In this document: piece by piece, positions 15,745-63,314 of the stretch
Layout: each line of letters opens with the position of its first letter
Numbering within the stretch: position 1 is the first letter of the stretch
NCBI GenBank assembly: GCA_964544585.1
Contig: CAZJBV010000001.1
Coordinates: 119,717-183,716, forward strand
DNA: 64,000 bases
Source of the DNA: an uncultured Gammaproteobacteria bacterium
GTDB taxonomy: Bacteria > Patescibacteriota > Microgenomatia > 2-02-FULL-39-11
Direction of reading: 5' to 3'
Position numbers and translations under genes: made by a program
Notes under the pieces: model-generated
Databases searched by the model: none
What the model was told of the DNA's origin: nothing
The model's input: only the letters and a program-made list of their open reading frames with translations

Positions 15745-16068
15745 TTACAATTTTTTAGGTTCTAGTAATAGAAATACTGCTCTTTTTTTGGCCACAGGAC
15801 AATGTTTTATTCCCTTGGGGACGACGTAGCCTTCACCCTCTGCCAGCTCTATATTTCCCTTTTCCGTCTGAATTGTAACTTTGCCTTTATAGATAAGAAA
15901 GAATTCGTCATAATCGTGAGTATGCCAGTGAAATTTTCCTTTTACTGCAGCCGCCTGTAAAACCCAACCGTTCATAGACGCAACATCTATCGGCGACCAA
16001 TACTTTTCTCCTAGCTTTCTATCGATATCTTTAAGATTATATTTTGGAGGAAGTTTTTTTACTTTCAT
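15745..16068 (-). CDS. cupin domain protein
   Basis: The C-terminal 107 aa carry cupin motifs (HWHTHDYDEFFLIYKG ... G..VVPKGIKH). The N-terminal ORF extension has no support and is trimmed. Confidence 0.6.
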   Translation of the reverse strand: MKVKKLPPKYNLKDIDRKLGEKYWSPIDVASMNGWVLQAAAVKGKFHWHTHDYDEFFLIYKGKVTIQTEKGNIELAEGEGYVVPKGIKHCPVAKKRAVFLLLEPKKL

Positions 16069-16237
16069 TGGCGATATAATTTTTTGCTGCGGGACTTGGA
16101 CTCGGACCAAGATTACCAGATTCAGAGTCTGGCTGCCTACCATTAGCAGATCCCGCAATTTGTTATATTTTATCAAATTGAGGCTGAGATTACACTTTTT
16201 TATCCCTAGCGTAGCAGTGTTACAATAAGCACATTCT

Positions 16238-16513
16238 ATGGCAAATAAAAAATATTGGTCGGGGTATGTAACTAAACATAGTTTTGCGCTGGATTTGGAA
16301 GAAGGAGTGTTTACTTGGGATGATCCGAAGAAAATAGCTGCCTCACTTAAGAATTCTGCTGAGGACAGCACTCGACGCAAAGCATCACCATTTCAATCGG
16401 CAATGTCGATGCTTAATTTTTATATAAACCGGGCGGGCAAGAATCTGAAACCGGAGAGAAAATCTGTCTTGGAAAAGGCAAAGATGGAGTTGAGAAAACT
16501 ATATAATAGATAA
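16238..16513 (+). CDS. DUF3175 family protein
   Basis: The pattern DPKKIA.SLK.SAE.S.RRK..PF.SAMSMLNFYINRAGK matches DUF3175. Confidence 0.55.
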   Translation: MANKKYWSGYVTKHSFALDLEEGVFTWDDPKKIAASLKNSAEDSTRRKASPFQSAMSMLNFYINRAGKNLKPERKSVLEKAKMELRKLYNR

Positions 16514-17365
16514 ATGATCAAGGCGATAATACTGGACGTGGATGGAGTGATTGTAGGAGAAAAGATTGGTCACAATGCACCACATCCGCATGCTGAGGTG
16601 GTGCAGAGATTGGTGGAACTAAGAAAAAAGGGTATCGGTGTAGTTTTGTGTACCGCCAGACCTCATTATTCAATTCAAAAAATAATTGATGATGCAAAAC
16701 TTAATAACTTCCATATTACAGCCGGCGGTGCGGTGATCATTGATCCATTAGATAAGAAGATCTATAAGGCTTACCCTATCCAAAAGAAACAGGCAATACA
16801 AATTATAGAGACTTATTTGAATGAACAGGCATATACCGAACTTTATACTGTCGATCGTTATTTTATCCAAAAAGATCAGCAATCAGAGATCACAAAAAAA
16901 CATACTTTTACTTTGCAGAAAAATCCACAGATAGTTCCGTCTCTTGTAAGTGTGGCAGAGAAATATGAGACTATTAAAATACTGCCTATTGCTAAAGATC
17001 AATCCGATAAAACTCGACTGACACAAATTTTTAGACCTTTTGAGGGGGTGGCAACCTTGAGTTGGGGTATTCATCCTGCAATTGCCCCTTTGCAATTTGG
17101 AAATATTACTGCTGCCGGAATATCAAAAAGAGAATCGGCTATGGAGGTGGTGAAGTCTCTTGATCTTTCGTTTTCAGAAGTACTTGGAATTGGAGATAGT
17201 ATGAGTGATTGGCAGTTTATGGAACTTTGCGAATATGCGGGTGCAATGGAGAATGCGAGTGAAGAACTGAAAAAACTGGTTTTGGCAAAGGGGAATAAGG
17301 GATACGTTGGCAAGTCTGTTGATGAAAACGGAATTTTGGATATTTTAAAGTTTTTCGGGATTTAA
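16514..17365 (+). CDS. HAD-superfamily hydrolase, Cof-like (IIB) phosphatase
   Basis: Has the N-terminal DVDGV motif, the C-terminal GIGDSMSD motif, and a cap domain in between. Confidence 0.75.
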   Translation: MIKAIILDVDGVIVGEKIGHNAPHPHAEVVQRLVELRKKGIGVVLCTARPHYSIQKIIDDAKLNNFHITAGGAVIIDPLDKKIYKAYPIQKKQAIQIIETYLNEQAYTELYTVDRYFIQKDQQSEITKKHTFTLQKNPQIVPSLVSVAEKYETIKILPIAKDQSDKTRLTQIFRPFEGVATLSWGIHPAIAPLQFGNITAAGISKRESAMEVVKSLDLSFSEVLGIGDSMSDWQFMELCEYAGAMENASEELKKLVLAKGNKGYVGKSVDENGILDILKFFGI

Positions 17366-17838
17366 TTTAATATAATAATTGATACGTTGAGGAGGGAGGC
17401 AAAACTTACCCAGAAAAAATATGGAATGAGTAAATATGCCGCAACTTTGGATATTTTGGAAAATTTTAGAATAGTCAGAAGGATAAAAATCCAGAGAACT
17501 ATGATATCAATAAAGCCGAGTATTGGAGAGTGCAGTCCAAAAAAGAGAAAAGACCAGAGGGAATTTAGAAAAAGCTGGATGACGAAAAATAAGAGTGCTG
17601 TTTTGACTAAATTTTTGTTGATTCCTCTTTCCCATATTAGATAGGCCGCGTAGCCCATCATAAAATACAGGACAGTCCAGACGGGACCGAATATCCAATT
17701 TGGAGGTGAGAAAAAAGGTTTGGCGAGGGTTGCATACCAGACAGGAATTGCATTTATGGTCACGGGAGTAGCTATGAGTCCAACTAATTCGCACAGTAAA
17801 ATTGTAAATATCAGCCTGGCAGGGTGTTTTACTCGCAT
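17362..17838 (-). CDS. tspO: TspO/MBR tryptophan-rich sensory protein
   Basis: A five-TM, 158-aa protein with the PPNWIFGPVWTVLY motif. Confidence 0.8.
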   Translation of the reverse strand: MRVKHPARLIFTILLCELVGLIATPVTINAIPVWYATLAKPFFSPPNWIFGPVWTVLYFMMGYAAYLIWERGINKNLVKTALLFFVIQLFLNSLWSFLFFGLHSPILGFIDIIVLWIFILLTILKFSKISKVAAYLLIPYFFWVSFASLLNVSIIILN

Positions 17839-19026
17839 AATTTTACTATACTATATTTAGTGAAAAATATTTTAATTCTATTTGCTATTTTAATTTTTAT
17901 AGGAGCGGGAGGATTTTATTTTTGGACATCGAAGAATAAAAATACTCCCCCTTCCCCCATTCAACAAATTCCTTCTGTTTCTCGCGAAAAAATAGATAGT
18001 GAAAGTCCACCTATAGCAGTAGTAGCAGAAAATCTTGAAGTGCCATGGGCAATTGCTTTTTTGCCTGCCTCGCCGGCAGGCGGGCCAGACGGGGGAATGC
18101 TTGTAACAGAAAGACCAGGAAGAGTGAGATTTATTGATAATGATGGAAAACTAGATTCTACTCCAGTTGCGACTATAGATTCTGTCAATGCCGTTGGAGA
18201 GGGAGGACTGATGGGAATTGCGCTCCATCCAGATTTTGAGAAAAATCAATATGTATATCTTTACTATACTTATGATGGAAGTGGTAATAATACTTCAAAT
18301 CGATTGGTGCGGATGAGATTTGAAAATAATCACTTGGCAAACGAAGAAATTTTGGTAGATAGTATTCCAGGAGCAAGCAATCATAACGGAGGAAGAATAA
18401 AGTTTGGACCGGACGGATTTCTTTATATAGGAACGGGAGATGTCCAAGAGCCGTCACAATCACAGAATAGAAATACACTGGGAGGAAAAATTTTGAGAGT
18501 TACAGACACTGGTAAACCGGCGCCAGGAAATCCATTTGGAAATGAAGTTTACTCTTATGGACATAGAAATGTGCAAGGACTGGCGTGGGATAGTCGCGGC
18601 CAGATGTGGGCGACGGAACACGGACCATCAGGAATTTGGCCAAACTGTTGCCAGGATGAAATAAATCGAATTGAACAGCAAGGAAACTATGGGTGGCCTC
18701 AAAGTGTCGGAGATAAAGTTGCCGCTGGAACTGTTGGTCCTATGTTTCATTCAGGAAGAGATATTTGGGCACCGAGCGGCGCTTCCATTGTGGGAGACTC
18801 ATTCTTTTTTGCGGGTCTACGAGGAGTCACTTTGTATGAGGCAGTTATAGAAAATGGGGAGGTCACTGAGGTAAAAGAGCATTTCAAGGGACAATTTGGA
18901 AGATTGCGGGAGGTAGTTGTCGGGCCTGATAATATGCTTTATATAACAACTAGCAATAGAGATGGAAGGGGCAAACCTCAAAGCGGTGATGATAAAGTAA
19001 TAAGAGTGAATCCTAATCTTCTTTAG
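17824..19026 (+). CDS. PQQ-dependent soluble sugar (aldose) dehydrogenase, YliI/SGDH family, membrane-anchored
   Basis: Carries beta-propeller motifs (PWAIAF, GRVRFID, NHNGGRIKFGPDG, YSYGHRNVQGLAWD, YGWP) after an N-terminal TM segment. Confidence 0.75.
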   Translation: MFYSHNFTILYLVKNILILFAILIFIGAGGFYFWTSKNKNTPPSPIQQIPSVSREKIDSESPPIAVVAENLEVPWAIAFLPASPAGGPDGGMLVTERPGRVRFIDNDGKLDSTPVATIDSVNAVGEGGLMGIALHPDFEKNQYVYLYYTYDGSGNNTSNRLVRMRFENNHLANEEILVDSIPGASNHNGGRIKFGPDGFLYIGTGDVQEPSQSQNRNTLGGKILRVTDTGKPAPGNPFGNEVYSYGHRNVQGLAWDSRGQMWATEHGPSGIWPNCCQDEINRIEQQGNYGWPQSVGDKVAAGTVGPMFHSGRDIWAPSGASIVGDSFFFAGLRGVTLYEAVIENGEVTEVKEHFKGQFGRLREVVVGPDNMLYITTSNRDGRGKPQSGDDKVIRVNPNLL

Positions 19027-54240: not shown

Positions 54241-54726
54241 TTATTCTTTTTTGATCATAGTGTCAATTACATCGTAGATAGTATCCCAGTCAAAACCTCT
54301 TCTTGCCAGGGCTCCTTCCAGTTTTTGTTTTAGTTCGACTTTTGGGAGATTTTTATATAAATTCAGTTTTTTTTGGGCGACTGTGAGAGCTTTTTCAAAT
54401 TCGCTGCGATACAATTTATTTACAGAGAAAAACTCTTCAATATCGGCTGTCGCGATGCCTTTTTGGCGAAGTTCTTGTTTTAAAAGCATTTTTCCTTTGG
54501 GTCGGAAAGTGTCTCTTTGATCGACCCACCATGAAATAAAAGCTTTATCCGAAACTAATTTTCGCTCTTCCAAGTCCGTAATGACTTTGTCGATTGTTTT
54601 TTTGGCGATACCGCGTTTAAAACTATATTGAAAAAGTTTGCCATAGAGTTCTTTTTGGGAACGGGGGCGAATTGATAAAAGTTTTAGGGCTTTATCGATA
54701 AGAAGTTGGTATTGATCTTGATCCAT
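54241..54726 (-). CDS. recX: regulatory protein RecX
   Basis: A 161-aa helical-repeat protein immediately downstream of recA. Confidence 0.75.
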   Translation of the reverse strand: MDQDQYQLLIDKALKLLSIRPRSQKELYGKLFQYSFKRGIAKKTIDKVITDLEERKLVSDKAFISWWVDQRDTFRPKGKMLLKQELRQKGIATADIEEFFSVNKLYRSEFEKALTVAQKKLNLYKNLPKVELKQKLEGALARRGFDWDTIYDVIDTMIKKE

Positions 54727-55754
54727 TAATCAGATTTTTCTCTACCTGTTTTTTCTTTGGCGTGGCCGGTTTTATGTGCTTTATATATTTGTTCCAAAAT
54801 TTCGCGGGCTAATTTATGATTTTCTTTTAAGTACATTTTGGCTGCTTCTCTACCCTGACCGAGCATGGTCGTCCCATACTTTAGAAAAGCGCCGGATTTG
54901 GTGATAATGCTATATTCTAGGCCAACATCGATAAGACCCCCTTCTCTGGATATACCACTACTATCGATATCGAATTCTGCAATTTTGAAGGGAGGCGAAA
55001 CTTTGTTTTTGACTATTCTTACCCTATGACGTGTTCCTACCACCTGATCCCCATCTTTAAGAGTCTCTATTTTCCTGATATCGATCCTAATTGAGGCATA
55101 AAACTTGAGGGCCAAGCCTCCGGGAGTCGTTTCGGGATTGCCAAACATAATGCCTATTTTTTGGCGCAGCTGATTGGTAAAAAGACAAATTGTTTTGGAC
55201 TTGGAGATAACGCCTGTGAGTTTGCGAAGTGCTTGGGACATGAGGCGGGCCTGCATACCCATGACAGCATCACCCATCTCGCCTTCGATTTCGGCTCGCG
55301 GGACTAGAGCTGCGACTGAATCTATAACGACGACATCAACTCCCCCAGACCTTATTAATGTCTCTGCAATTTCTAGGGCTTGCTCGCCTGTGTCGGGCTG
55401 GGAAATAAGAAGATCTTCCAGTTTGACACCCAGTCTTTCTGCCCAGACGGGATCGAGGGCGTGCTCGGCATCAATAAAGGCGGCTACACCTCCGTGCTTT
55501 TGGGCTTCGGCAATAACAGTCAGAGCAAGGGTTGTTTTTCCGGATGCCTCGGGGCCGAATATTTCGGCGATTCGCCCTTTAGGTAAGCCTCCTATTCCTA
55601 GGGCAAGATCGACGGCAATAGAACCTGTGGGGATAACATCAATTGTTAGTTTTTGGGTTGACTCGCCTAATTTCATGATAGATCCTTTGCCGTACTGCTT
55701 TTCTATCTGCTCCATCGCCAGTTTAATTGCTTGGAATTTTTGGTCGTTTGTCAT
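54726..55754 (-). CDS. recA: recombinase RecA
   Basis: Has Walker [10 protein letters not shown], the L1/L2 loops, and highly conserved sequence throughout. Confidence 0.95.
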
Positions 55755-55808
55755 TGGGCCTCCTAATGAAATGTGGAAAATGTTTTGAGCAGGAATCGAT
55801 TTTTATTC

Positions 55809-57410
55809 TTACATAGATAATGCTAGAATACAATAGTTCAAAACGGGGTGTAGGTCATCGGTAGACCGCGCGCATGGGGTGCGTGAAGTAGTGGGTTCAA
55901 TTCCCGCCACCCCGACAGATAGAGAGTCCGCGAAGCGGACGGAAGGTTGGGTCTGCGCGCCCCCACTCGCGCAGACTTCTGCAAAGCCCTGATTATATTC
56001 TGGGACAAGCCGCCGATCAGTTAAAAAGAAGTTCGAGCCGACAGTTTTTGCCATGATCGACAGATCATGGGATGTATTTTTTGCGCGCGCGATTTTTGCG
56101 CACGATAGTGCGCTACCAATGAAGTTTTTGAAAGGTTCGAGCCAACTCGAACCATTTTGTTTTATTTGTTCTAATTCTTCACTTATTTTTAATTTTTCTT
56201 CGAAAAATTCGTTCTTTTTTGTCTTGTAAATTTCGGGGTCAATAATTCCTTCTAAGTAACCATCTAAGAGTTTATTAAGTTTTACATCAATATCTTTTAA
56301 TTGCTGCTCTAATTTTAGGGTATTATCGTGAATGGATACAGTCTCTAATTTCTCATCCTCATCTAGCCATTTATACCAATTACTAGCCCATTTTTCTGGT
56401 AATGCAACATCATCAATGGCTTTTCTAAATTGTTGTTCAAGCTCTGGTTCTGAAATGTAAGGTTGATTGCAGGGTTTAATTTTTTTAGTACATCTATAGT
56501 AAACATATTCAACAGTTCTATTTGTTCCTTTGTAGAATTTTTTATGAGATTCAGCGGTAATAGTTGCTCCACACTCTCCACATCTCATTAAACCCATAAA
56601 GGGGAAATTATATCTTCTTTTTTTATGTCTATCCCTAAACTTTAATTCTTGCTGGACTTTTTGGAATAACTCTTTACTTATAATAGTTTTATGAGTACCC
56701 TCGTGATATTCTCCGTTGTAATACATTATGCCTATGTAAAATCTGTCTGATAAAATCTGGCGGATTTGATTTATATGTAGGGGTTTATCAATTTTTCTTT
56801 TAAGGTCAAACTTATATAGAAAGGTCGCAATATCAGTAAAAGTTTTGTCGCCTTCGCTAAATAATTCAAAAGCCTTCTTAATTGCTTTTAGTTTTTCTCC
56901 ATCTACATCTATCCCACGGGTTTTAGGATTATTAATATACCCATAAGGAGCTTTGCCAGGATAAACACCATTGCGGATTTTTTGTCTTAACCCACGTCTT
57001 ACATTTTCAGATAAATTATCCACATAATATTTACTCTGACCAAAGGCAATATTTAACATAAATTTTCCCTGGGGAGTATTTTCAAACCAAGAGGTCGGAA
57101 ATTTTAAGTCCTTCAATTTCCCGGTATCTAAAAGGTAAATTATTTTCCCACCATCTATTGAGTTACGAGCTAATCTATCAGGATGCCACGCAATAATCCC
57201 TTGTATATGACCTTTTTCTATTTTCTTCAAAACTTCCGCAAATTTTTCTCTGCCCGGAATCTTGGCAGTTTTTTCTTCTTCAACAAATTCGGTAATTTCC
57301 AAATGCTCTCTTTTAGCGTATTCTTTTAGCTCGGCAATTTGAGCAGAGATAGATAAAATCTGTTTATCTTTTTCTTCTCTGGATTTTCTACAGTAAGCAA
57401 TGTATTTCAT
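55809..57410 (-). CDS. large serine recombinase (resolvase domain + recombinase domain + zinc ribbon)
   Basis: An N-terminal YCRKSREE...SISAQ catalytic-serine motif, a recombinase domain, and CGECG...YYRC. The last ~90 codons read through IR1-L and antisense tRNA-Pro (GIEPTTS), so the true C-terminus is uncertain. Confidence 0.8.
   Translation of the reverse strand: MKYIAYCRKSREEKDKQILSISAQIAELKEYAKREHLEITEFVEEEKTAKIPGREKFAEVLKKIEKGHIQGIIAWHPDRLARNSIDGGKIIYLLDTGKLKDLKFPTSWFENTPQGKFMLNIAFGQSKYYVDNLSENVRRGLRQKIRNGVYPGKAPYGYINNPKTRGIDVDGEKLKAIKKAFELFSEGDKTFTDIATFLYKFDLKRKIDKPLHINQIRQILSDRFYIGIMYYNGEYHEGTHKTIISKELFQKVQQELKFRDRHKKRRYNFPFMGLMRCGECGATITAESHKKFYKGTNRTVEYVYYRCTKKIKPCNQPYISEPELEQQFRKAIDDVALPEKWASNWYKWLDEDEKLETVSIHDNTLKLEQQLKDIDVKLNKLLDGYLEGIIDPEIYKTKKNEFFEEKLKISEELEQIKQNGSSWLEPFKNFIGSALSCAKIARAKNTSHDLSIMAKTVGSNFFLTDRRLVPEYNQGFAEVCASGGAQTQPSVRFADSLSVGVAGIEPTTSRTPCARSTDDLHPVLNYCILALSM
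55844..55915 (+). tRNA. tRNA-Pro (anticodon GGG)
   Basis: Cloverleaf: acceptor cggggtg/caccccg, D stem ggtc/gacc, anticodon stem cgcgc/gcgtg with loop aTGGGgt, T arm gtggg-ttcaatt-cccgc, discriminator A. Confidence 0.75.
55913..56015. repeat. IR1-L: 103-bp perfect inverted copy of 57519-57621
   Basis: Exact reverse complement of IR1-R. It starts 3 nt inside the 3' end of tRNA-Pro. It contains the internal hairpin gtctgcgcg-agtggggg-cgcgcagac. Confidence 0.9.
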
Positions 57411-57518
57411 TTTTTATTTTCCTCTTATAAGAAGAGTTCTTTTGCGAGCGAAGCGAGCAGTCCCGATGATATATCGGGACAAAATTTTTGCGTTCCTCGT
57501 TTTTTGTTCTTTTTAACC

Positions 57519-57700
57519 GGCGGCTTGTCCCAGAATATAATCAGGGCTTTGCAGAAGTCTGCGCGAGTGGGGGCGCGCAGACCCAACCTTCCGTCCGCTT
57601 CGCGGACTCTCTATCTGTCGACCTTTTTAAAAAAATCCGAACTCGCTTTAAGTCGAATCGGTAGGCGCGCTACGCGCGCCATCTTATCCGCTCGGCCTTC
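57519..57700. repeat. IR1-R (57519-57621) fused to IR2-L (57615-57700): the junction segment of two inverted-repeat-bounded modules
   Basis: The left 103 nt are the exact reverse complement of 55913-56015. The right 86 nt are the exact reverse complement of 62493-62578. Confidence 0.9.
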
Positions 57701-57850
57701 GGCCGAAGCTCTTAAACTGTCGGCCGAACCAGTCCGTAGGACTGCAAAAAACGCAAAAATTTTAAAGAACTTTTGTTATTTCTGTTTGCTTATTCCAATT
57801 TGGCATATTACATTTTGGAATATATCATATACTGTATCTTATTTTCAACT

Positions 57851-58078
57851 ATGAAAAAATCTATTTTTTCGGAGGATCATAAATATTTAGTAAGTCAACT
57901 TAAAAAAGCCAGAGAAGAAGCATCTCTTGAGCAAGAAGAGGTGGCTAAGTTACTTGGAAAAACTCAATCTTATATTTCAAAAATAGAGTCAGGTCAAAGA
58001 AGAATAGACATCGTTCAATTAAAACAATTTGCGAAGTTATACAAGAAAGAGGTTAATTTCTTTATTAAAAAGGCATGA
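57851..58078 (+). CDS. XRE-family HTH protein, probable R-M controller (C) protein
   Basis: A 75-aa Cro/C1-type HTH (QEEVAKLLGKTQSYISKIESGQR). Its stop overlaps the downstream ORF start (ATGA), as in C-R operons. Confidence 0.6.
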   Translation: MKKSIFSEDHKYLVSQLKKAREEASLEQEEVAKLLGKTQSYISKIESGQRRIDIVQLKQFAKLYKKEVNFFIKKA

Positions 58079-58920
58079 GAAGAAAAGAAATAATTAAATT
58101 TATCACCGGAATGATCGAAGAAGGTGGATTAACCTTTACTGATTATGCGACTAAACTCGAGGAGATAGTTAATAAACTATCGTTGGAAGATATAAAAATA
58201 AGCCTACTTGAATGTGGCGTAATCCCAGAGTCTTTTAATCACGATTCAACGGAAGAAAAATTATATTCAAAATATTCAGATATGTTACTTGCAAGAGCGT
58301 TCACATTCATCGGAATAGATTCCAAAGTTATTAAAGAAAGAGCAGATGCGGCAGATGTTGAGGGTAAAACTAAAGACTACACTCTTGTTGCAGATGGAAA
58401 GGTCTTTCGGTTAAGCCGAACTGCTAAGAATCAGAAGGATTTTAAGGTCGAAGCGTTAGATAAATGGAGGAACGGTAAAGATTTCGCTTGTTTGGTATCT
58501 CCTCTTTATCAATACCCTAAAAGTAAAAGTCAAATTTATAGACAAGCTATTGGTAGAAATGTTACCTTATTTTCCTATATCCACCTATATTTTATTCTCT
58601 CTCAAAATAAGTCGAACCAGTGCAACTATAAACCCTTATGGTTGGTTAGTAAGAAATTAAAAGGTGCAAAAGGAGCAGTAACTTATTGGAAGGGAATTGA
58701 TAAGACGCTTTGCAAAATCCTAAATAAAAGTCTAAAAGAGCTAGAAGCGATTAAAAAACTTGAGCTTGATTTACTAAAAGAATCTGCAAAAGAAGAAGTG
58801 GCATATATTGAAGGTAAAATTGAAACAATAAAATCATTATCACATACCGAGGCTATTGAGAGATTAATAAAAGCAGAAAAACTTGATCAGAAAATTAATC
58901 AAATAACAAGAATGGCTTGA
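58075..58920 (+). CDS. putative Type II restriction endonuclease (by context)
   Basis: A 281-aa protein with no family signature recognised. It is translationally coupled to the C-protein and convergent with the methyltransferase. There is a possible PD-(D/E)xK arrangement (GID ... DVEGK). Confidence 0.35.
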   Translation: MRRKEIIKFITGMIEEGGLTFTDYATKLEEIVNKLSLEDIKISLLECGVIPESFNHDSTEEKLYSKYSDMLLARAFTFIGIDSKVIKERADAADVEGKTKDYTLVADGKVFRLSRTAKNQKDFKVEALDKWRNGKDFACLVSPLYQYPKSKSQIYRQAIGRNVTLFSYIHLYFILSQNKSNQCNYKPLWLVSKKLKGAKGAVTYWKGIDKTLCKILNKSLKELEAIKKLELDLLKESAKEEVAYIEGKIETIKSLSHTEAIERLIKAEKLDQKINQITRMA

Positions 58921-60495
58921 TTAAAATAGAGGTTCCTGATTTACTTTACCATTTTTTGGATTAGAAACATAAGCTCCATTTAATCTTTTTTTGGCAATCT
59001 CGCAAAATTCACTGGAAATTTCAAAACCAATATATTTTCTATTAAGATTCTTTGCCGCAATAGCGGTCGAACCGGAACCAAGAAATGGATCCATAATAAC
59101 CTGACCATCTTTTGTTACAAGCCTAATTAAATATTCTAATAACTCCACTGGCTTCTGTGCTTCGTGTAGTCCTCCTTCGCCTTTGCCAAAACCAAACTGT
59201 AGAATATTTGTCGGAGATTTTCCGTTGATTAAAGACGCATCTATATTCATGGCTCCTACTTTATTTTTTAGTACATTATCTGTAATTGTAATTTCATAGG
59301 GTTTAAATAACCAGGCAATCGGTTCATATTTTGGCGCGAGATTACCAACCTTCCAACCTTCCCATTCCTTTGCTTCTTCTACCAATCCTCTTTTCTTAAT
59401 AATTTCACTTATATATTGAGCTCTGTGATGAGCATTTGGTTTTTCCCAAGCTAGGATATCTCTTAACAGAAACCCACTATCTTCAAGAGCTATAATTGCC
59501 CTGTGCAGAGTTCTTCTTGCGCCGAAAATAAATATACTTGCGCCTTCTTTTAAAGAAGGGTAGAGCTTTTTTGCCCACGAATAACACCATTCTTGGTATT
59601 CTTTTGGGATATTTCTGTCTGCGCTTGACCACCCATTAATAGGTTTTCCTCTTCTCCGAAATGCCTTTTTGCCTATCTGTGCAGGTGATTGTCCTAAAAG
59701 GGCGGAGTTTGTGTTAGCGTGTAAAACATCCCATTCATCCAGTGATATTCCATAAGGAATATCCGACAGAACTAGATCTATTGAATCCGGCTTCACCTTA
59801 TCTAGAAGTTCTATAGCATCACCACAAAGAATTTGATTTTCTTCAATATATTCGGATGGACTAACTTTATTTTCAGTTTCTGGAGGTAAATTAGTTTTGG
59901 TATTGAGATTTTTAATAATGTCAATAACAATTCCTTGCACAATTAAATTTTCTGGATCAACAAAAAATGGATCTAAACTTGAATTTGCTGGCTGAAGTCT
60001 TATTTTTCCTCTTTCCCTATATAATTTTTTCAAAGTTACTTCTGAATTGTTTATTAATGCAACTACTTTTTGTCCATTATCGGCTGTAGGTTGGCTTTTT
60101 ACTATTACTATATCTCCATGATCAATATTTTCATCAATCATACTTTGTCCAGCAACACGTAGGCCGTAGAAATCACCATTTTTCGGTATTTTTGATTTTG
60201 GTACTGCTATAAACTCTTTATCTTCAATAGCTAAAATTGGTTGTCCCGCAGCAATAGTGCCAAGCAGAGGAATCTGTACCATTTGCATCTCATCATACAC
60301 ATCAATTGCCCGAGGCTGATTTTCTTCTTTTCTTAACAAACCCAAATCTTCTAATGCCTTGACGTGATGATGGGCTGTTGAAACAGAGGATAGCCTTAAA
60401 TGCTTCTTTATTTCTTCCAAAGAAGGAGCATAACCATGTTTAGTTTTGTAGGATTTTATATATTCCAGAACTTGCTTTTGTCTTTTTGTAATCAT
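58921..60495 (-). CDS. LexA repressor (HTH + S24 peptidase) fused to a beta-class N4/N6 DNA amino-methyltransferase
   Basis: The N-terminal ~205 aa have the LexA architecture: a wHTH domain, the AAG cleavage site (TIAAGQP), catalytic Ser (AGQSM) and Lys (TLKKL). The C-terminal ~320 aa have motif IV SDIPYG preceding motif I DPFLGSGST (PF01555-like). It is a single open frame with no internal start. Confidence 0.75.
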   Translation of the reverse strand: MITKRQKQVLEYIKSYKTKHGYAPSLEEIKKHLRLSSVSTAHHHVKALEDLGLLRKEENQPRAIDVYDEMQMVQIPLLGTIAAGQPILAIEDKEFIAVPKSKIPKNGDFYGLRVAGQSMIDENIDHGDIVIVKSQPTADNGQKVVALINNSEVTLKKLYRERGKIRLQPANSSLDPFFVDPENLIVQGIVIDIIKNLNTKTNLPPETENKVSPSEYIEENQILCGDAIELLDKVKPDSIDLVLSDIPYGISLDEWDVLHANTNSALLGQSPAQIGKKAFRRRGKPINGWSSADRNIPKEYQEWCYSWAKKLYPSLKEGASIFIFGARRTLHRAIIALEDSGFLLRDILAWEKPNAHHRAQYISEIIKKRGLVEEAKEWEGWKVGNLAPKYEPIAWLFKPYEITITDNVLKNKVGAMNIDASLINGKSPTNILQFGFGKGEGGLHEAQKPVELLEYLIRLVTKDGQVIMDPFLGSGSTAIAAKNLNRKYIGFEISSEFCEIAKKRLNGAYVSNPKNGKVNQEPLF

Positions 60496-60602
60496 AGATA
60501 TTGACAGCTCAAGAATAATTCTATACAATTAGGTTAATCGAAAATGAATCGAAAGTCAAGTGGTTAAAATTTAACCTGAAGATTAAAGGGGGTGATGAAA
60601 AT

Positions 60603-60815
60603 ATGACTCATCGTAAAGGATCAAAACCAAATCATAAAGGAGAGCAGTGGACAGAATCACAAGTTGAGCGTCTTGAGAATTTGGCTAAAAGGAATACACC
60701 TACCCCTTTAATTGCAGATGCATTAGGTAGAACGGAGGGGGCAATAAGATCTAAAACATCGGAAGAGAATATTTCTCTTAAGCCAATCAATAAATCTCCC
60801 TATAGTAGAAGGTAA
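60603..60815 (+). CDS. small GcrA/Myb-like HTH protein
   Basis: W-T-E..V..L..L......P..IA..LGRT..A...K resembles the GcrA N-terminal/SANT-like DNA-binding fold. A good SD (aagggggtga) lies upstream. Confidence 0.35.
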   Translation: MTHRKGSKPNHKGEQWTESQVERLENLAKRNTPTPLIADALGRTEGAIRSKTSEENISLKPINKSPYSRR

Positions 60816-60836
60816 AATAGAATTGATAAAGCAATT

Positions 60837-61814
60837 ATGGACTTATTTTCGAAAGTCAAACCATCACTTTTTATAGCCCGTCCTTGGGATACATCCTTTG
60901 CTGAACTTTATGAACCCATTAAGAAAAACCTCGTTGGTAAATGGGAAATTAATGACGGCCCCCTTATAGTTAAAGAAGATGAGGCTCAAGCAGAAAGAGA
61001 AATGTTCATAGGTAGAAACAAGCAACTGTACGAACAGATTGTTTTAGGGATAAAGAAGTCAGATGTCTTTATTGCCGATGTAACAAATGCTAATGCAAAC
61101 GTTATGATGGAATTAGGAATTGCAATACAACTAAACAAAAATGTCATTATAGTGACAGGGCAAGATAGGAATAGACTCCCGTTTGATATACAGGGTTTTA
61201 AAGCAGAAAAATATGATAATATAAATGACCTCGGTGAAAAAATTGGAAATGGACTTTCTTTATATTTATCAATAAAAGAACAGAATTTTGATAAGCCCTT
61301 TCCAGAAAACCACATACCTATATCTGATGGGAAATTAACGGGACTTAGGGCAATAATGCCGATTCAACTTTCCAAACCTATTAAAAATTTAAAGCTGAGA
61401 ATCGAATACAAATTTGTAAATAAATCTGATGATCAGGATTGGCTAGGAATACATTTGCGAGCATCTCCCTCTATTCAACCTTCTGAATTAGTGTATGTTA
61501 GATCAAATGGTAGCTTAGAGATTGTAACGCTCCCTACCAGACCTGCACCCTCGGTAGGAGTAGATAAAGAAAATATAGATAACAGGTTAGAAGATGGATA
61601 CACTAGATTAGAACTAATTCTTGATGGCAATAAATTACTGGCCGCTACCTCAACTAAAGAGTTATATGACGATTTAATTCAAATAGAATCGTTCGGCAGT
61701 ATATTTCTTCAGGCAAATGGACATAGCCAAGATCCACAAAAACGAGAGAGTCTTGAGATTGATTTTAGAAATTTTGAAATTATTAATATAGATACGACAA
61801 GTCCTAACTCGTAA
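60837..61814 (+). CDS. nucleoside 2-deoxyribosyltransferase-like (NDT/TIR-like Rossmann) N-domain protein with unknown beta-rich C-domain
   Basis: The N-terminus (LFIARPW ... SDVFIADVTNANANVMMELGIAIQLNKNVIIV) resembles the PF05014/PF15891 fold. The C-terminal 180 aa are unassigned. Confidence 0.45.
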   Translation: MDLFSKVKPSLFIARPWDTSFAELYEPIKKNLVGKWEINDGPLIVKEDEAQAEREMFIGRNKQLYEQIVLGIKKSDVFIADVTNANANVMMELGIAIQLNKNVIIVTGQDRNRLPFDIQGFKAEKYDNINDLGEKIGNGLSLYLSIKEQNFDKPFPENHIPISDGKLTGLRAIMPIQLSKPIKNLKLRIEYKFVNKSDDQDWLGIHLRASPSIQPSELVYVRSNGSLEIVTLPTRPAPSVGVDKENIDNRLEDGYTRLELILDGNKLLAATSTKELYDDLIQIESFGSIFLQANGHSQDPQKRESLEIDFRNFEIINIDTTSPNS

Positions 61815-62492
61815 ATTATATTTTTATTTTTTAACCTTTGAAGCGGCTCCGCCGCCCCCGCCCTGTTGGGGATAATTTCCCTTAAAGGAGGGCTGCCGTC
61901 AGAAAAACTTTCAAGTAGGGAGCTAAAAGAAAATCTGGGATAGGCAGCCCGACAAACGCGAGAGCCGAGAGGAATATTTTCGGATTATAGAAAAACTCGG
62001 CTCGAGCCATCGGAATCAGTAGCGTAGCGAGCTCTCGAGAGCGAGCAAGCGGTGGGAAGCAGAAGGGGTACAAATAATAAAGGCGGGGGCGAAAAGCGGA
62101 ATACCCCCGCAACGGCAGGAGATACTAAAACAGAAAAAGGGGAGGCGAGGAGCGGCCGAAGGCTATTTTGTTCTTCGCTCCTCGCCGTGGTAGAGACTGT
62201 AAAGCGAAAATAGAAAACCCCTAATATGGGAAAGGCTCCCCCTAGGGAGCCCTCTCGCCCAAAAGCGGGGGTGCCGCTTCCTTTTAATTGGGTGGGAGGG
62301 ATGATGGGAATTTGTACCAGCGTATAGATATATGTTTTTAAAGGGAGCGTTAAGTTAGTTTTCCGCGGATGGGTGGGTTGGGCCAAGGAAAACATTTGTG
62401 TTTTTGTTACTTTACCTGTCCGCGTCAGCGGACTATAATAAATAAAAATCGCGCGCATTTCTGTCTTTGCAAAAAATACTAGAGCGAGGCCA
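61815..62492 (+). other. GC- and purine-rich non-coding segment with dense local hairpins (candidate structured RNA)
   Basis: No credible ORF. GC is far above background. There are multiple perfect hairpins (gaggcgaggagcg/cgctcctcgcc, ggctccccctagggagcc, gcgggggc...gcccccgc). Confidence 0.35.
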
Positions 62493-62578
62493 AAGGCCGA
62501 GCGGATAAGATGGCGCGCGTAGCGCGCCTACCGATTCGACTTAAAGCGAGTTCGGATTTTTTTAAAAAGGTCGACAGA
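62493..62578. repeat. IR2-R: 86-bp perfect inverted copy of 57615-57700
   Basis: Exact reverse complement. Contains the hairpin ggcgcgc-tac-gcgcgcc. Confidence 0.9.
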
Positions 62579-62651
62579 ATACGAATTCACAGAAGAAGAG
62601 TCACGGAGGCTCTGCGCGGGTGGGGGCGGGGGGGATCCTTCAAGAATTGAA

Positions 62652-63314
62652 TCAATTGCAGTTCCAATAACAAAAGGTAATTTTGCCAGTAATACTTTCT
62701 CTGGGAATAAATCCTATAAATCTAGAATCGGCACTATTGGGTCTATTGTCTCCTAAGACAAAATAATGACCGGAAGGAATAGTAACTTCATTATCCTCAG
62801 GAAGAAAAGTTCCCCCCATTGTCGTTATATTTGGGGGGAGGTATTTACTATCATCTAATTTTTTACCATTTATGTATACTTGACCACCTTGAATCATCAC
62901 TTTTTCACCTGGTAATCCTATGACTCTTTTGAAATAGTCGATATCTTTATTATCAGGTGCCTGAAATACAACAACATCATATCGATTGATCGTATCACTA
63001 GAGTAGACAACTTTAGCCACATAATATTGACCATCTTTATAAGAAGGATTCATCGCGATTCCCTTTATTTGAATTGGTTTAATAAAGAAGAGATATGTTA
63101 CAACACCAAATGACAAGGCTAATAATAATGCTAAGGGGAGAGTAAGAAGTATTTTAAGCCATTTGGGCCAGAAGGTAAATCGCCACATGATAATTATGCC
63201 AATTATAAATAGTAGGTTCCATATAATTCCTAGAACTAGTAATACAATTGTGATGATTGTAATCGTAGTTGGAGAAATACGGGCTTTGGATTGGAATTTA
63301 CTTGGCATAAACAA
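62652..63314 (-). CDS. lepB: signal peptidase I
   Basis: An S26 family protein with the SM(N)PS-like box (GIAMNPS), KR box (FKRVIGLPGE) and GDNR..S.DSR box. Confidence 0.85.
   Translation of the reverse strand: MFMPSKFQSKARISPTTITIITIVLLVLGIIWNLLFIIGIIIMWRFTFWPKWLKILLTLPLALLLALSFGVVTYLFFIKPIQIKGIAMNPSYKDGQYYVAKVVYSSDTINRYDVVVFQAPDNKDIDYFKRVIGLPGEKVMIQGGQVYINGKKLDDSKYLPPNITTMGGTFLPEDNEVTIPSGHYFVLGDNRPNSADSRFIGFIPRESITGKITFCYWNCN

What the first reader, a model, noticed from the sequence alone, without database searches (positions are those of the whole stretch)
55844..62640. tRNA-Pro-adjacent accessory island: serine recombinase module plus an R-M-like cargo module
The core genome is AT-rich, gene-dense and syntenic-looking. 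This 6.8-kb block is different in three ways. It starts exactly at the 3' end of a tRNA gene. It carries a large serine recombinase. It is bounded by long perfect repeats. Its cargo comprises a C-protein HTH, a putative endonuclease, the LexA-methyltransferase fusion, a GcrA/Myb-like protein, an NDT-like protein, and a long GC-rich non-coding tract. The ensemble looks like a mobile defence or epigenetic island. Several of its parts have no assignable family.
Basis: partly seen in the sequence, partly recalled or inferred. Interest (0 to 1): 0.8.

Follow-up and report, generated by a model that had tools for sequence, protein, structure and literature searches.

The report
Self-splitting serine-recombinase island at tRNA-Pro
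The block is a real 6.7-kb mobile island inserted at the 3' end of tRNA-Pro, and it belongs to a large, apparently undescribed family in candidate-phyla-radiation bacteria whose recombinase gene is cut by its own integration, which keep an inverted spare copy of the attachment site, and many of which carry a new structured RNA alongside defence genes.

Summary
tRNA-Pro(GGG) ends at 55916, and a large serine recombinase (LSR), a C-protein/HindIII-type/LexA-methyltransferase R-M system, an NDT/TIR-like gene and a GC-rich tract follow it. The long repeats are real but inverted and interlocked. Three sites share the core CGACAGA: attL (55913-19), an intact inverted attP (57614-20) and attR (62572-78). 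In related genomes, 27 of 28 recA/tRNA-Pro sites are empty, so this is an insertion.

The three-site layout recurs in about 60 independent loci at many different tRNAs. The P arm mimics the tRNA T-loop, offset by 4-5 bp, as expected for LSR attP versus attB.

Read across attP, the recombinase frame ends in a conserved tail, Y-x-K-I-R-T-x-F, whose codons vary synonymously. The native gene therefore spans attP, and integration replaces its C-terminus with antisense-tRNA sequence. The internal attP is an inverted spare 3' end.

The GC-rich tract is a roughly 470-nt covarying RNA motif absent from Rfam. It occurs in 18 other elements, always beside attR, and those elements carry defence cargo.

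The roles of the spare attP and of the RNA are inferred, not shown. I rate this a new variant of a known kind, interest 0.8.

The parts
55844..55916 (+). tRNA-Pro(GGG). Its T-arm and acceptor 3' strand form the B half-site of the attachment site.
   Evidence: Found by ARAGORN and Rfam. In 65 of 80 related loci an antisense tRNA or tmRNA sits at the same distance (about 1490 nt) from the recombinase start.
55913..55919 (+). S1 core CGACAGA. This is the attL crossover region: the last two acceptor-stem bases, the discriminator base and 4 more nt.
   Evidence: It is the sequence shared by all three sites. Across the family the core is the last 3-4 nt of the tRNA.
55920..56015 (+). P' arm, attL copy. 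It encodes (antisense) the last ~35 codons of the recombinase before the core and holds two hairpins just downstream of the tRNA.
   Evidence: It is the left arm of IR1, 103 nt and 100% identical to its partner. Hairpins are shown by the fold.
55809..57410 (-). Large serine recombinase as it stands in the integrated state (533 aa). Residues from about 498 onward are translated from the core and the antisense tRNA.
   Evidence: Pfam finds Resolvase, Recombinase and Zn_ribbon_recom. R8 and S10 are invariant. Homologues carry tRNA-antisense tails.
57411..57517 (-). Region upstream of the recombinase, a putative promoter. It contains the motif AACGCAAAAATT at 57483-57494.
   Evidence: Based on position only. 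The same motif is mirrored at 57750-57761 on the cargo side and recurs in L172. This assignment is inferred.
57518..57704 (+). S2, an intact attP in inverted orientation: rc(P') 57518-57613, core 57614-57620, rc(P) 57621-57704. On the + strand it reads ...SLSV|DLFKKIRTRFKSNR, with the stop at 57662-57664 followed by two GC hairpins. It is therefore a spare copy of the native 3' end of the recombinase gene.
   Evidence: The right arm of IR1 and the left arm of IR2 overlap by the 7-nt core. Translation is, tail conservation, hairpins.
57857..58078 (+). C-protein (controller HTH) of the R-M system.
   Evidence: Pfam HTH_3, and PADLOC Control_protein and HTH models.
58075..58920 (+). HindIII-family type II restriction endonuclease.
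   Evidence: Pfam RE_HindIII E = 2.2e-76; PADLOC REase_II E = 1e-70.
58921..60528 (-). A full LexA (DNA-binding domain plus S24 peptidase, with AAG, GQSM and LKK motifs) fused to an N6/N4 DNA methyltransferase.
   Evidence: Pfam LexA_DNA_bind, Peptidase_S24 and N6_N4_Mtase. NCBIfam TIGR00498 scores above its cutoff. The same fusion occurs in L033/L034, and LexA-like genes stand alone in L007 and L075.
60603..60815 (+). 70-aa ORF of unknown function.
   Evidence: No family matched in Pfam, NCBIfam or PADLOC. It was called as a gene in Logan contigs.
60837..61814 (+). 325-aa protein with an N-terminal NDT/TIR-like domain (residues about 47-135) and an unassigned C-terminal half.
   Evidence: Pfam Nuc_deoxyrib_tr E = 7e-7; PADLOC TIR effector E = 3e-8; PDB DNPH1/Rcl E about 2e-3.
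61836..62302 (+). Core of a conserved structured RNA motif. It is GC-rich and reads towards attR. Conserved 3' blocks continue to about 62470.
   Evidence: nhmmer E = 1.6e-109. There are 18 further copies, all in recombinase loci and all next to S3. Covariation is shown. Rfam has no match.
62488..62578 (+). S3, the attR side: the P arm (62488-62571) plus the core CGACAGA (62572-62578). It carries the displaced tail codons and hairpins of the recombinase gene. On this strand it has a hairpin plus U-run, resembling a terminator.
   Evidence: It is the right arm of IR2, 91 nt and 99% identical to its partner. Logan contigs from the lepB side end at about 62549, where the sequence becomes repeated.
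62579..62651 (.). Host flank (B') between attR and the lepB stop codon. It is not part of the element.
   Evidence: Its similarity to P' is not above shuffled controls. lepB at 62652-63308 is a host gene.

Best explanation
**What is shown**

Positions 55917-62575 are an integrated mobile element driven by a large serine recombinase. It inserted by attP x attB recombination exactly at the 3' end of tRNA-Pro(GGG).

- The tRNA T-arm and acceptor end form the B half-site.
- The element's P arm imitates that half-site (GTTCGRA), with the motif 4-5 bp further from the crossover. This is the geometry known for LSR attP versus attB.
- The native recombinase ORF runs across attP. After the core it continues for 11-15 codons into the P arm, giving a conserved tail x-[LVI]-[YF]-x-K-[IVC]-R-T-x-F, then a stop codon and hairpins.
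- Integration therefore splits the gene. In the chromosome the recombinase ends in variable antisense-tRNA sequence, and its true tail sits about 5 kb away at attR.
- About 100-200 nt upstream of its start, the element also keeps an inverted, near-identical copy of the whole 3' end: the last ~35 codons, the core, the tail and the hairpins. This copy is an intact attP (S2).

The cargo consists of:

- a C-protein-controlled HindIII-type R-M system whose methyltransferase is fused to a complete LexA;
- a TIR/NDT-like protein;
- a roughly 470-nt structured RNA beside attR.

**What is inferred**

- Recombination through the gene-spanning attP disables or alters the recombinase. This would explain why every chromosomal copy is the same isomer and why S2 stays unreacted.
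- Inverting the recombinase segment across the 103-nt repeat would rejoin the gene to the spare tail and re-arm it.
- Two loci carry a second tRNA in place of the P arm at S2, the arrangement expected if S2 can recombine with a second tRNA.
For: **Insertion**
- 27 of 28 related recA/tRNA-Pro(GGG) sites are empty.
- In L010 a second tRNA begins about 10 nt after attR.

**Family-wide design**
- 438 relatives occur in species-representative genomes.
- 65 of 80 loci have an antisense tRNA or tmRNA at the recombinase 3' end.
- IR1 is found in 56 of 61 eligible loci and IR2/S3 in 35 of 42. Median arm identity is 98%, although the proteins are only 50-86% identical.

**Site anatomy**
- The pattern B|core|P', P|core|P', P|core|B' holds in 67 loci.
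- The GTYC motif lies 4-5 nt further out in P than in the tRNA in 30 of 34 loci. This matches the 5-bp zinc-ribbon-domain (ZD) motif shift described in PMC3783163.

**Gene spans attP**
- The tail is conserved in 39 distinct P arms, with synonymous codon variation: Arg CGA/AGA/CGG/CGT/CGC, Thr ACN, Tyr TAY, Phe TTY.
- Integrated-state tails vary from 8 to 50 codons.
- 5 of 120 database homologues end with the native tail.

**S2 appears able to recombine**
- L081 and L053 carry a tRNA-Glu in place of the P arm.

**Cargo and RNA**
-.

**Not phage**
- Neither the recombinase nor the RNA has a relative in viral contigs.

**Literature**
- S-Int use of t(m)RNA genes was described as not previously reported (PMC7192596).
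- No paper on this family was found.
Against: - No excision product, empty site or circle was seen for this particular strain. The closest genomes with empty sites have only 69-79% RecA identity.
- All 67 chromosomal copies are one isomer, and the RNA is always at the attR end (19 of 19). Inversion of either segment has therefore never been observed.
- The few native-tail contigs (L172-L174) break at the repeat. They could be assembly mis-joins across a 100-nt repeat.
- Loss of activity in the tRNA-tailed protein is assumed, not tested.
- No recombination directionality factor was identified, so how excision happens is unknown.
- Concerted evolution of the repeat arms could reflect gene conversion without any function.
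- The function of the RNA is unknown. Its link with defence cargo is a correlation across 39 elements.
Confidence: 0.72

Rival explanations
1. The internal inverted attP (S2) is chiefly a second working attachment site. The excised form is then a circle with two inverted attP sites. It can integrate through either site or carry out cassette exchange between two convergent tRNA genes. S2 is not there to re-arm the recombinase.
For: - S2 is a complete P|core|P' site with correct half-site geometry.
- In L081 and L053 a tRNA replaces the P half of S2. This is the product expected of S2 x attB.
- In L074 the recombinase sits between two different P arms.
Against: - If both attP sites were used equally, about half of the chromosomal copies should have the recombinase 5' end next to the tRNA. 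The observed count is 0 of 65.
- The arms are about 100 nt long, far more than an LSR site needs.
- LSRs are not known to recombine attP with attP, attL or attR (PMC3783163).
Confidence: 0.25
2. The repeats define a phase-variation switch. The recombinase acts as an invertase that flips the recombinase segment and/or the cargo segment to turn the R-M system and the RNA on or off, as in shufflon or Gin/Hin-type systems.
For: - Two adjacent segments are each bounded by long, perfect inverted repeats that share a core.
- Serine recombinases include invertases.
- The arms are kept near-identical within each locus.
Against: - Only one orientation of the recombinase segment is seen, in 67 of 67 loci.
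- Only one orientation of the cargo end is seen: the RNA is next to attR in 19 of 19 cases.
- Single cargo genes mostly point the same way.
- The sites are attL, attP and attR types with P-versus-B geometry, not equivalent inversion sites.
- The protein is a large serine integrase, not a small invertase.
Confidence: 0.08
3. The block is ancestral core genome, and the repeat structure is an assembly artefact of a metagenome-assembled genome.
For: - The window comes from a MAG.
- Many related contigs end near this gene.
- Logan contigs break in and around the block.
Against: - 27 of 28 related sites are empty.
- The same architecture appears in about 60 independent assemblies from different studies and different tRNAs.
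- The repeat homology fades through an indel rather than stopping at a k-mer edge.
- Contig breaks coincide with repeat edges, as expected for a real repeat.
Confidence: 0.02
4. The block is a decayed prophage or phage satellite whose integrase happens to lie next to a tRNA.
For: - Large serine integrases and S24/LexA-like repressors are typical of temperate phages.
- Islands next to tRNAs are often prophage remnants.
Against: - Cargo from 39 elements contains no capsid, terminase, tail or replication genes. Many elements hold the recombinase plus one housekeeping-type gene, with the whole element about 3 kb.
- Neither the recombinase nor the RNA has a relative in 2.9 million viral contigs.
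Confidence: 0.03

Closest known systems
Large serine integrases of temperate phages (A118/LI, Bxb1, phiC31, SPbeta)
   Same: - They share the three-domain architecture and the catalytic R8/S10.
- attP x attB gives hybrid attL and attR with a short common core.
- The zinc-ribbon-domain motif lies about 5 bp further from the centre in attP than in attB (PMC3783163). Here the shift is 4-5 bp.
   Different: - The target is the extreme 3' end of tRNA or tmRNA genes, with several tRNA species used per subfamily.
- The recombinase ORF crosses the crossover site, so integration swaps its C-terminus.
- An inverted second attP is kept inside the element.
- No RDF gene is evident.
- The element is not in a phage, and can be as small as about 3 kb.
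SCC cassette recombinases CcrA/B/C and the heterocyst excisase XisF
   Same: - These are the best named NCBIfam relatives (E about 1e-31).
- They are also LSRs that move small, cargo-bearing, non-phage chromosomal cassettes into the 3' end of a conserved gene.
   Different: - The scores fall far below the family cutoffs (110 bits against 375-900).
- SCC elements target rlmH, not tRNAs.
- Neither system has a split recombinase gene or an internal inverted attP.
tRNA-targeting genomic islands and tycheposons (tyrosine integrases)
   Same: - They are small cargo islands at tRNA genes.
- They show variable cargo and tandem accretion, and the same tRNA sites are used repeatedly.
   Different: - They use tyrosine recombinases and duplicate a tRNA 3' fragment.
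- Here a serine recombinase crosses over at the discriminator base and no tRNA fragment is duplicated.
- S-Int use of t(m)RNA genes was described as previously unreported (PMC7192596).
Integration-dependent gene truncation (mycobacteriophage BPs/Brujita type immunity; recalled from my own knowledge, not checked here)
   Same: attP lies inside a coding sequence, so integration changes the C-terminus of an element-encoded regulator. The protein thereby senses whether the element is integrated or free.
   Different: - In those phages the gene cut is the repressor and the integrase is a tyrosine enzyme.
- Here the recombinase's own gene is cut, and a spare inverted 3' end is carried.
Inversion systems that swap gene 3' ends (Mu Gin G-segment, R64 shufflon) and the yeast 2-micron FLP/FRT inverted repeats (from my own knowledge)
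   Same: - A recombination site lies inside a coding region, with alternative 3' ends.
- In the 2-micron circle, two inverted copies of the site divide the circle into two unique segments.
   Different: - Inversion has not been observed here.
- The sites are of attL, attP and attR type.
- The gene whose end would be swapped is the recombinase itself.
Large 'ornate' bacterial RNAs found in mobile elements near tRNAs (ROOL, GOLLD, HEARO, OLE)
   Same: - They are several hundred nucleotides long and GC-rich in an AT-rich genome.
- They have many covarying helices and invariant blocks.
- They are carried by a mobile element next to a tRNA gene.
   Different: - The motif matches no Rfam 15 model, even at E = 1.
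- It is restricted here to Microgenomates LSR elements.
- It has a fixed position and orientation next to attR.
- It co-occurs with R-M, Shedu and Abi-type cargo.
C-protein-controlled type II R-M systems (HindIII family)
   Same: - It has a controller HTH, a HindIII-family REase and an N6/N4 MTase.
- The genes lie in the usual compact arrangement.
   Different: - The methyltransferase carries a complete, apparently cleavage-competent LexA at its N-terminus.
- The fusion recurs in another element (L033/L034).

Membership tests
Large serine recombinase (serine integrase) | Resolvase catalytic domain plus Recombinase domain plus zinc beta-ribbon domain | tested here: met
   Pfam PF00239 (E = 3e-22), PF07508 (E = 4e-14) and PF13408 (E = 3e-11), all above their cutoffs.
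Large serine recombinase (serine integrase) | Catalytic serine with a conserved arginine near the N-terminus | tested here: met
   Y6-C7-R8-K9-S10 is invariant in 20 aligned homologues.
Large serine recombinase (serine integrase) | attP and attB half-sites share a ZD motif that lies about 5 bp closer to the centre in attB | tested here: met
   The GTYC motif lies 18 nt from the shared core in the tRNA (modal value, 26 loci) and 22-23 nt in the P arm. The difference is +4 or +5 in 30 of 34 loci. The rule is taken from PMC3783163. Only the left half-sites could be compared.
Large serine recombinase (serine integrase) | Coiled-coil motif and a cognate RDF that control directionality | not tested
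   A heptad-rich stretch (residues about 350-420) is visible in alignment A1 but was not analysed. No small gene is conserved across the 39 cargo regions.
Integrative mobile element / genomic island | Related genomes have the same site unoccupied | tested here: met
   27 of 28 related recA/tRNA-Pro(GGG) loci with at least 2 kb beyond the tRNA lack the island.
Integrative mobile element / genomic island | Hybrid junctions that recombine in silico into attP and attB | tested here: met
   The left half of S3 plus the right half of S1 equals S2 (P|core|P') at 99-100% identity. The pattern repeats in 35 loci that have all three sites.
Integrative mobile element / genomic island | Excised circle or empty site in the same population | not testable with these tools
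   Only assembled contigs are available. Logan unitigs break at the repeats. Native-tail contigs L172-L174 are ambiguous.
Site-specific inversion switch (invertase/shufflon type) | Both orientations of the segment occur in nature | tested here: not met
   The recombinase segment has the same orientation in 67 of 67 loci. The RNA end of the cargo is next to attR in 19 of 19.
Type II R-M system with controller (HindIII family) | REase, cognate-type MTase and C-protein encoded together | tested here: met
   RE_HindIII E = 2e-76; N6_N4_Mtase E = 3e-45; PADLOC Control_protein E = 1e-7. Recognition of AAGCTT is not shown, and the site is not depleted in the window.
LexA / S24 autocleaving repressor | Winged-helix DNA-binding domain plus S24 peptidase with an Ala-Gly cleavage site and a Ser/Lys dyad | tested here: met
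   NCBIfam TIGR00498 scores 182 bits against a cutoff of 111, covering profile positions 3-202 of 203. The AAG, GQSM and LKK motifs are read directly from the sequence. Cleavage itself was not tested.
Any Rfam 15 RNA family (including ROOL, GOLLD, HEARO, OLE, RNase P, tmRNA, introns) | Covariance-model match | tested here: not met
   There is no hit at gathering score in the window. Only noise appears at E up to 1 over 61750-62700.
Structured non-coding RNA (generic) | Conserved base pairs supported by compensatory changes, beyond the controls | tested here: met
   Across 17 sequences, 95.7% of cells are paired against 44-52% with slid partners. There are 53 double-change cells against 5-14 in the slid controls, and 0 of 500 shuffles reach this. 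G-U pairs point to the + strand as the transcript. Transcription was not tested.
Prophage / phage satellite | Phage structural, packaging or replication genes, or presence in viral sequence collections | tested here: not met
   None appear among the Pfam hits of 110 cargo proteins. IMG/VR has no relatives.

The most novel reading that the evidence does not exclude
This family uses a directionality and safety mechanism not described for serine integrases. The recombinase gene straddles attP, so the act of integration removes a conserved C-terminal tail and switches the enzyme off. An inverted spare 3' end (S2) allows a simple inversion to rebuild the gene and re-arm the element. This would replace a separate RDF and restrain an enzyme able to attack many tRNA genes. 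In addition, the ~470-nt RNA beside attR would be a new class of large structured RNA functionally tied to the defence cargo, or to the element's mobility.
Probability: 0.35. Interest if true: 0.9.

Novelty: new variant of a known kind. Interest (0 to 1): 0.8.

Why it matters
1. Serine integrases are workhorses of genome engineering, and their directionality control is an active structural question. A natural family in which integration rewrites the enzyme's own C-terminus, and which carries a built-in spare, would be a new solution to that problem. It is directly testable with two protein isoforms and three short DNA sites.
2. The family shows that serine integrases can target tRNA and tmRNA 3' ends on a large scale. 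Here that means hundreds of species and more than a dozen tRNA types. This behaviour was thought to belong almost only to tyrosine integrases.
3. The elements look like a main vehicle of accessory genes in the tiny genomes of Microgenomates (CPR), whose routes of gene exchange are poorly known. Cargo ranges from single housekeeping-type genes to R-M, Shedu and Abi systems.
4. A new large structured RNA with clear covariation, a fixed place in a mobile element and a link to defence cargo is a ready candidate for RNA structure and function studies.
5. The recurrent LexA-methyltransferase fusion suggests that control of restriction-modification is coupled to DNA damage.

Tried and rejected
- **Exact-protein look-ups.** The 533-aa recombinase and lepB with its TTG start returned nothing. 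lepB with its ATG start worked.
- **Logan contigs.** They could not show empty sites or isomers because unitigs break at the repeats and inside the tRNA.
- **Rfam.** Gathering and E-value modes gave no family for the GC-rich tract or for the S2 region.
- **Viral collection.** It holds no relative of the recombinase or the RNA, so a prophage reading was dropped.
- **Promoter and terminator scan.** Hits were not above shuffled expectation, so it was not used as evidence.
- **AAGCTT avoidance.** The site occurs 23 times against 29.9 +/- 5.3 expected, which is uninformative.
- **Host flank after attR as a relic of an older P' arm.** I first read it that way. An alignment against shuffles showed no significance (score 33 against a mean of 32), so the claim is withdrawn for the window. 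Clearer cases exist in other loci, for example L039.
- **S2 as a small C-terminal peptide gene.** Start codons are not conserved across loci, so this was rejected.
- **Free flip-flop of the two segments.** Rejected because only one isomer is ever seen.
- **Conserved cargo gene as an RDF candidate.** Clustering of 157 cargo ORFs found none shared across subfamilies.
- **Literature.** Eight searches found no description of this family, its architecture or the RNA.

Full report
**1. Checking the observation**

ARAGORN and Rfam place tRNA-Pro(GGG) at 55844-55916 (+). Immediately after it lies a 533-aa ORF (55809-57410, minus strand) with Resolvase, Recombinase and zinc-ribbon domains. This is a large serine recombinase (LSR).

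Downstream lie:
- an HTH C-protein (57857-58078);
- a HindIII-family restriction endonuclease (58075-58920, Pfam E = 2e-76);
- a complete LexA fused to an N6/N4 methyltransferase (58921-60528; NCBIfam LexA 182 bits against a cutoff of 111);
- a 70-aa ORF with no family match;
- a 325-aa protein with a weak NDT/TIR-like N-terminal domain;
- a GC-rich tract.

Two long repeats are present. One is 103 nt and 100% identical (55913-56015 with 57518-57620). The other is 91 nt and 99% identical (57614-57704 with 62488-62578). Both are inverted, and they abut each other at 57614-57620.

**2. Three sites, one core**

Written in one orientation, the three junctions are:
- tRNA|CGACAGA|P' at 55913-55919;
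- P|CGACAGA|P' at 57614-57620, inverted;
- P|CGACAGA|host flank at 62572-62578.

These have the form of attL, an intact attP, and attR. The crossover region covers the last two acceptor-stem bases, the discriminator base and four following bases. No tRNA sequence is duplicated or lost.

**3. It is an insertion**

A metagenome scan with the neighbouring RecA gave 80 loci with 69-79% RecA identity.
- 42 keep the window's divergent recA/tRNA-Pro(GGG) arrangement.
- 28 of those have at least 2 kb beyond the tRNA.
- 27 of the 28 have no recombinase there.

In L010 a second tRNA starts about 10 nt after attR, so that element sits between two adjacent tRNA genes.

**4. It belongs to a very large family with a fixed architecture**

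The recombinase has thousands of homologues. There are 438 relatives in species-representative genomes. By record title these are essentially all Microgenomates-group CPR bacteria: Blackburn-, Davies-, Woese-, Gottesman-, Levy-, Collier- and Shapirobacteria, among others.

Among the 80 best loci:
- 65 have an antisense tRNA whose 3' end lies about 1490 nt after the recombinase start. The tRNAs include Pro, Gln, Glu, Gly, Lys, Leu, Val, Thr, Trp, Phe, Ile and Ser, and one locus uses a tmRNA.
- The double inverted repeat is present in 56 of 61 loci where it could be seen. The outer P copy is present in 35 of 42.
- The two copies of each arm are typically 98% identical within a locus, while the proteins of different loci are only 50-86% identical to the window's.

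This rules out an assembly artefact. Logan unitigs from four samples also end exactly where the attR arm becomes identical to the S2 arm.

One subfamily with the same P arm sits at tRNA-Glu, tRNA-Lys and tRNA-Val genes that all end in TCAC. Targeting therefore depends on the generic T-loop plus a few terminal bases.

**5. The sites follow serine-integrase rules**

The P arm carries a GTTCGRA-like copy of the tRNA T-loop. In 30 of 34 loci this motif lies 4 or 5 nt further from the shared core in P than in the tRNA. Rutherford et al. showed that the zinc-ribbon-domain motif lies 5 bp closer to the centre in attB than in attP (PMC3783163). S2 is therefore a true attP-type site and the tRNA end a true attB-type half-site.

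Mageeney et al. noted that use of t(m)RNA genes by serine integrases had not been reported, with only 14 of 297 cases in their survey (PMC7192596). No paper describing this family was found.

**6. The recombinase gene spans attP**

In the chromosome, the ORF runs through the core into the antisense tRNA and ends after a variable 8-50 codons. This explains the odd 'GIEP...RSTDELHP' tails of database homologues.

Read instead across the core into the P arm, as at S2 or in an excised circle, the frame ends after 11-15 codons. The tail is conserved: x-[LVI]-[YF]-x-K-[IVC]-R-T-x-F. In the window it reads SLSV|DLFKKIRTRFKSNR, followed by the stop codon.

In 39 distinct P arms the conserved residues vary synonymously:
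- Arg is CGA, AGA, CGG, CGT or CGC;
- Thr is ACC, ACT, ACG or ACA;
- Tyr is TAC or TAT;
- Phe is TTT or TTC.

This is the signature of selection on a translated sequence. The T-loop mimic is at the same time the codons I-R-T. GC hairpins follow the stop codon.

So the native gene straddles the crossover point, and integration replaces its conserved tail. S2 is then an inverted spare copy of the gene's 3' end: the last ~35 codons, the core, the tail and the hairpins. It lies 115-231 nt upstream of the start codon.

Five of 120 homologue clusters end with the native tail. Their contigs (L172-L174) show the gene reading into an S2-type flank. These contigs break at the repeat, so an assembly mis-join cannot be excluded.

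**7. How it most likely works**

Shown:
- insertion by attP x attB at the tRNA end;
- the split gene;
- the conserved spare attP.

Inferred:
- Recombination through the gene-spanning attP disables or changes the enzyme. This would explain why all 67 chromosomal copies are the same isomer and why S2 remains unreacted.
- An inversion across the 103-nt repeat, by host homologous recombination or by residual recombinase, would rejoin the gene to the spare tail.
- Two loci fit an 'armed' isomer whose gene-spanning attP then hit a second tRNA. In L081 the recombinase lies between two convergent tRNA-Glu genes, each followed by the core and P'. L053 has a tRNA-Glu at the S2 position.

Evidence against free inversion:
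- the cargo end is fixed, with the RNA next to attR in 19 of 19 cases;
- no alternative isomer is assembled anywhere.

No conserved small gene that could act as an RDF was found.

**8. Cargo and the RNA**

Between loci of one subfamily, the conserved parts are the recombinase module, both P arms and short adjoining stretches. The interior is unrelated. It ranges from about 1.1 to 9.8 kb.

The window's GC-rich tract is conserved at 69-75% identity in many elements. An nhmmer profile finds it in the window (61836-62302, E = 1.6e-109) and in 18 other recombinase loci at different tRNAs. It finds none in the 80 RecA control loci. It is always 100-450 nt inside attR and reads towards it.

Alignments show invariant GC blocks and helices with compensatory changes. 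On 17 sequences:
- 95.7% of cells pair, against 44-52% with slid partners;
- 53 cells show double changes, against 5-14 in the slid controls;
- 0 of 500 shuffles reach the observed value.

G-U pairs point to the + strand as the transcript. Rfam 15 has no match, and viral contigs hold none.

Cargo differs with the RNA:
- Elements with the RNA carry defence genes: HindIII- and Alw26I-type REases, C5 and N6 MTases, Vsr, a type I system, Shedu, AbiEii-like ATPases and four LexA-like proteins.
- Elements without it carry single housekeeping-type genes: vitamin transporter, deformylase, Ddl, epimerase, sortase and DHFR.

L033/L034 carry the same C/HindIII/LexA-MTase cassette behind a recombinase only 57% identical to the window's. 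The fusion is therefore recurrent and the cassette mobile.

**9. Comparison and verdict**

The element works like a serine-integrase island and passes the family tests that could be run. It differs in five ways:
- its target;
- the split recombinase gene;
- the inverted spare attP;
- the lack of an evident RDF;
- the associated RNA.

I file it as a new variant of a known kind. The island itself is firmly established. The switch model and the role of the RNA are hypotheses with clear tests.

Noticed in passing
Proteins P0010-P0016, P0018, P0021, P0023, P0028, P0051, P0061, P0062, P0073, P0090: About 20 homologues of 865-932 aa are in-frame fusions. A full recombinase runs, at about residue 500 (its P' region), into a second recombinase that starts at the conserved LAFGQSKYY (about residue 120). 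This looks like a recurrent insertion of one element into the recombinase gene of another.
   Followed up: partly
Window 54726-55916; loci L007, L008, L014, L099, L131, L136, L157, L163, L164, L166: The orientation of tRNA-Pro(GGG) relative to recA differs between lineages, even at empty sites (42 divergent, 6 co-oriented). The block [tRNA plus element] is inverted in the window relative to L007, L008 and L014, although the wider gene order (rplM-rpsI-PIN-RHH ... recA) is the same. The cause is unknown.
   Followed up: partly
L081:9796-11582; L053:9753-10001: In L081 the recombinase is flanked by two convergent tRNA-Glu genes, each followed by the core TCAC and a P' arm. L053 has a tRNA-Glu upstream of the recombinase at the S2 position, but its contig ends before the 3' end. 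The P half of the internal attP has been replaced by a tRNA, as expected if that site recombined with a second tRNA gene.
   Followed up: partly
L074:1-2518: The recombinase 3' end abuts a P arm of a different subfamily, one nucleotide out of frame, instead of a tRNA. One element seems to have used another element's P arm as its target.
   Followed up: no
L042:1798-2198: One family member is integrated at the 3' end of a tmRNA gene rather than a tRNA.
   Followed up: no
Window 57483-57494 (-) and 57750-57761 (+); L172:28-48 and 1686-1706: The motif AACGCAAAAATT(TTAAAG) occurs in divergent copies on both sides of the internal attP. One faces the recombinase and the other faces the cargo. These may be paired promoters or operators.
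   Followed up: no
Window 60512-60522 and 60562-60576: Two palindromes lie in the intergenic region between the LexA-methyltransferase gene and the 70-aa ORF: AGAATAATTCT, inside a TTGACA-17-TACAAT promoter-like site, and GGTTAAAATTTAACC. They are candidate operators for the LexA domain.
   Followed up: no
Window 62290-62308: The sequence GGGTGGGAGGGATGATGGG has four G-tracts and is G-quadruplex-like. It lies at the 3' edge of the RNA motif, and the GGG.GGG.GGG part is invariant in 17 sequences.
   Followed up: no
Window 55868-55872 (ends of Logan contigs L001-L005): Contigs from five samples carrying the identical recA all stop inside the tRNA, before the attachment core. This implies a co-occurring sequence variant that diverges within the tRNA body.
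   Followed up: no
L014 (reverse complement) 15762-18200: The recA ORF is 812 aa long in this relative, which suggests an intein or another insertion.
   Followed up: no
L088:5380-5500; L090 and L133 just 3' of tRNA-Pro: Some 'empty' sites carry traces of earlier events. L088 has a duplicated tRNA-Pro 3' half about 70 nt downstream. L090 and L133 have short P'-like sequences after the tRNA. These may be scars of earlier elements.
   Followed up: no
L012:1941, 8132, 9816; L007:1928; L039:26: A third P-arm copy lies further out, and L012 also has a partial second recombinase. This indicates tandem accretion of elements at one tRNA.
   Followed up: no
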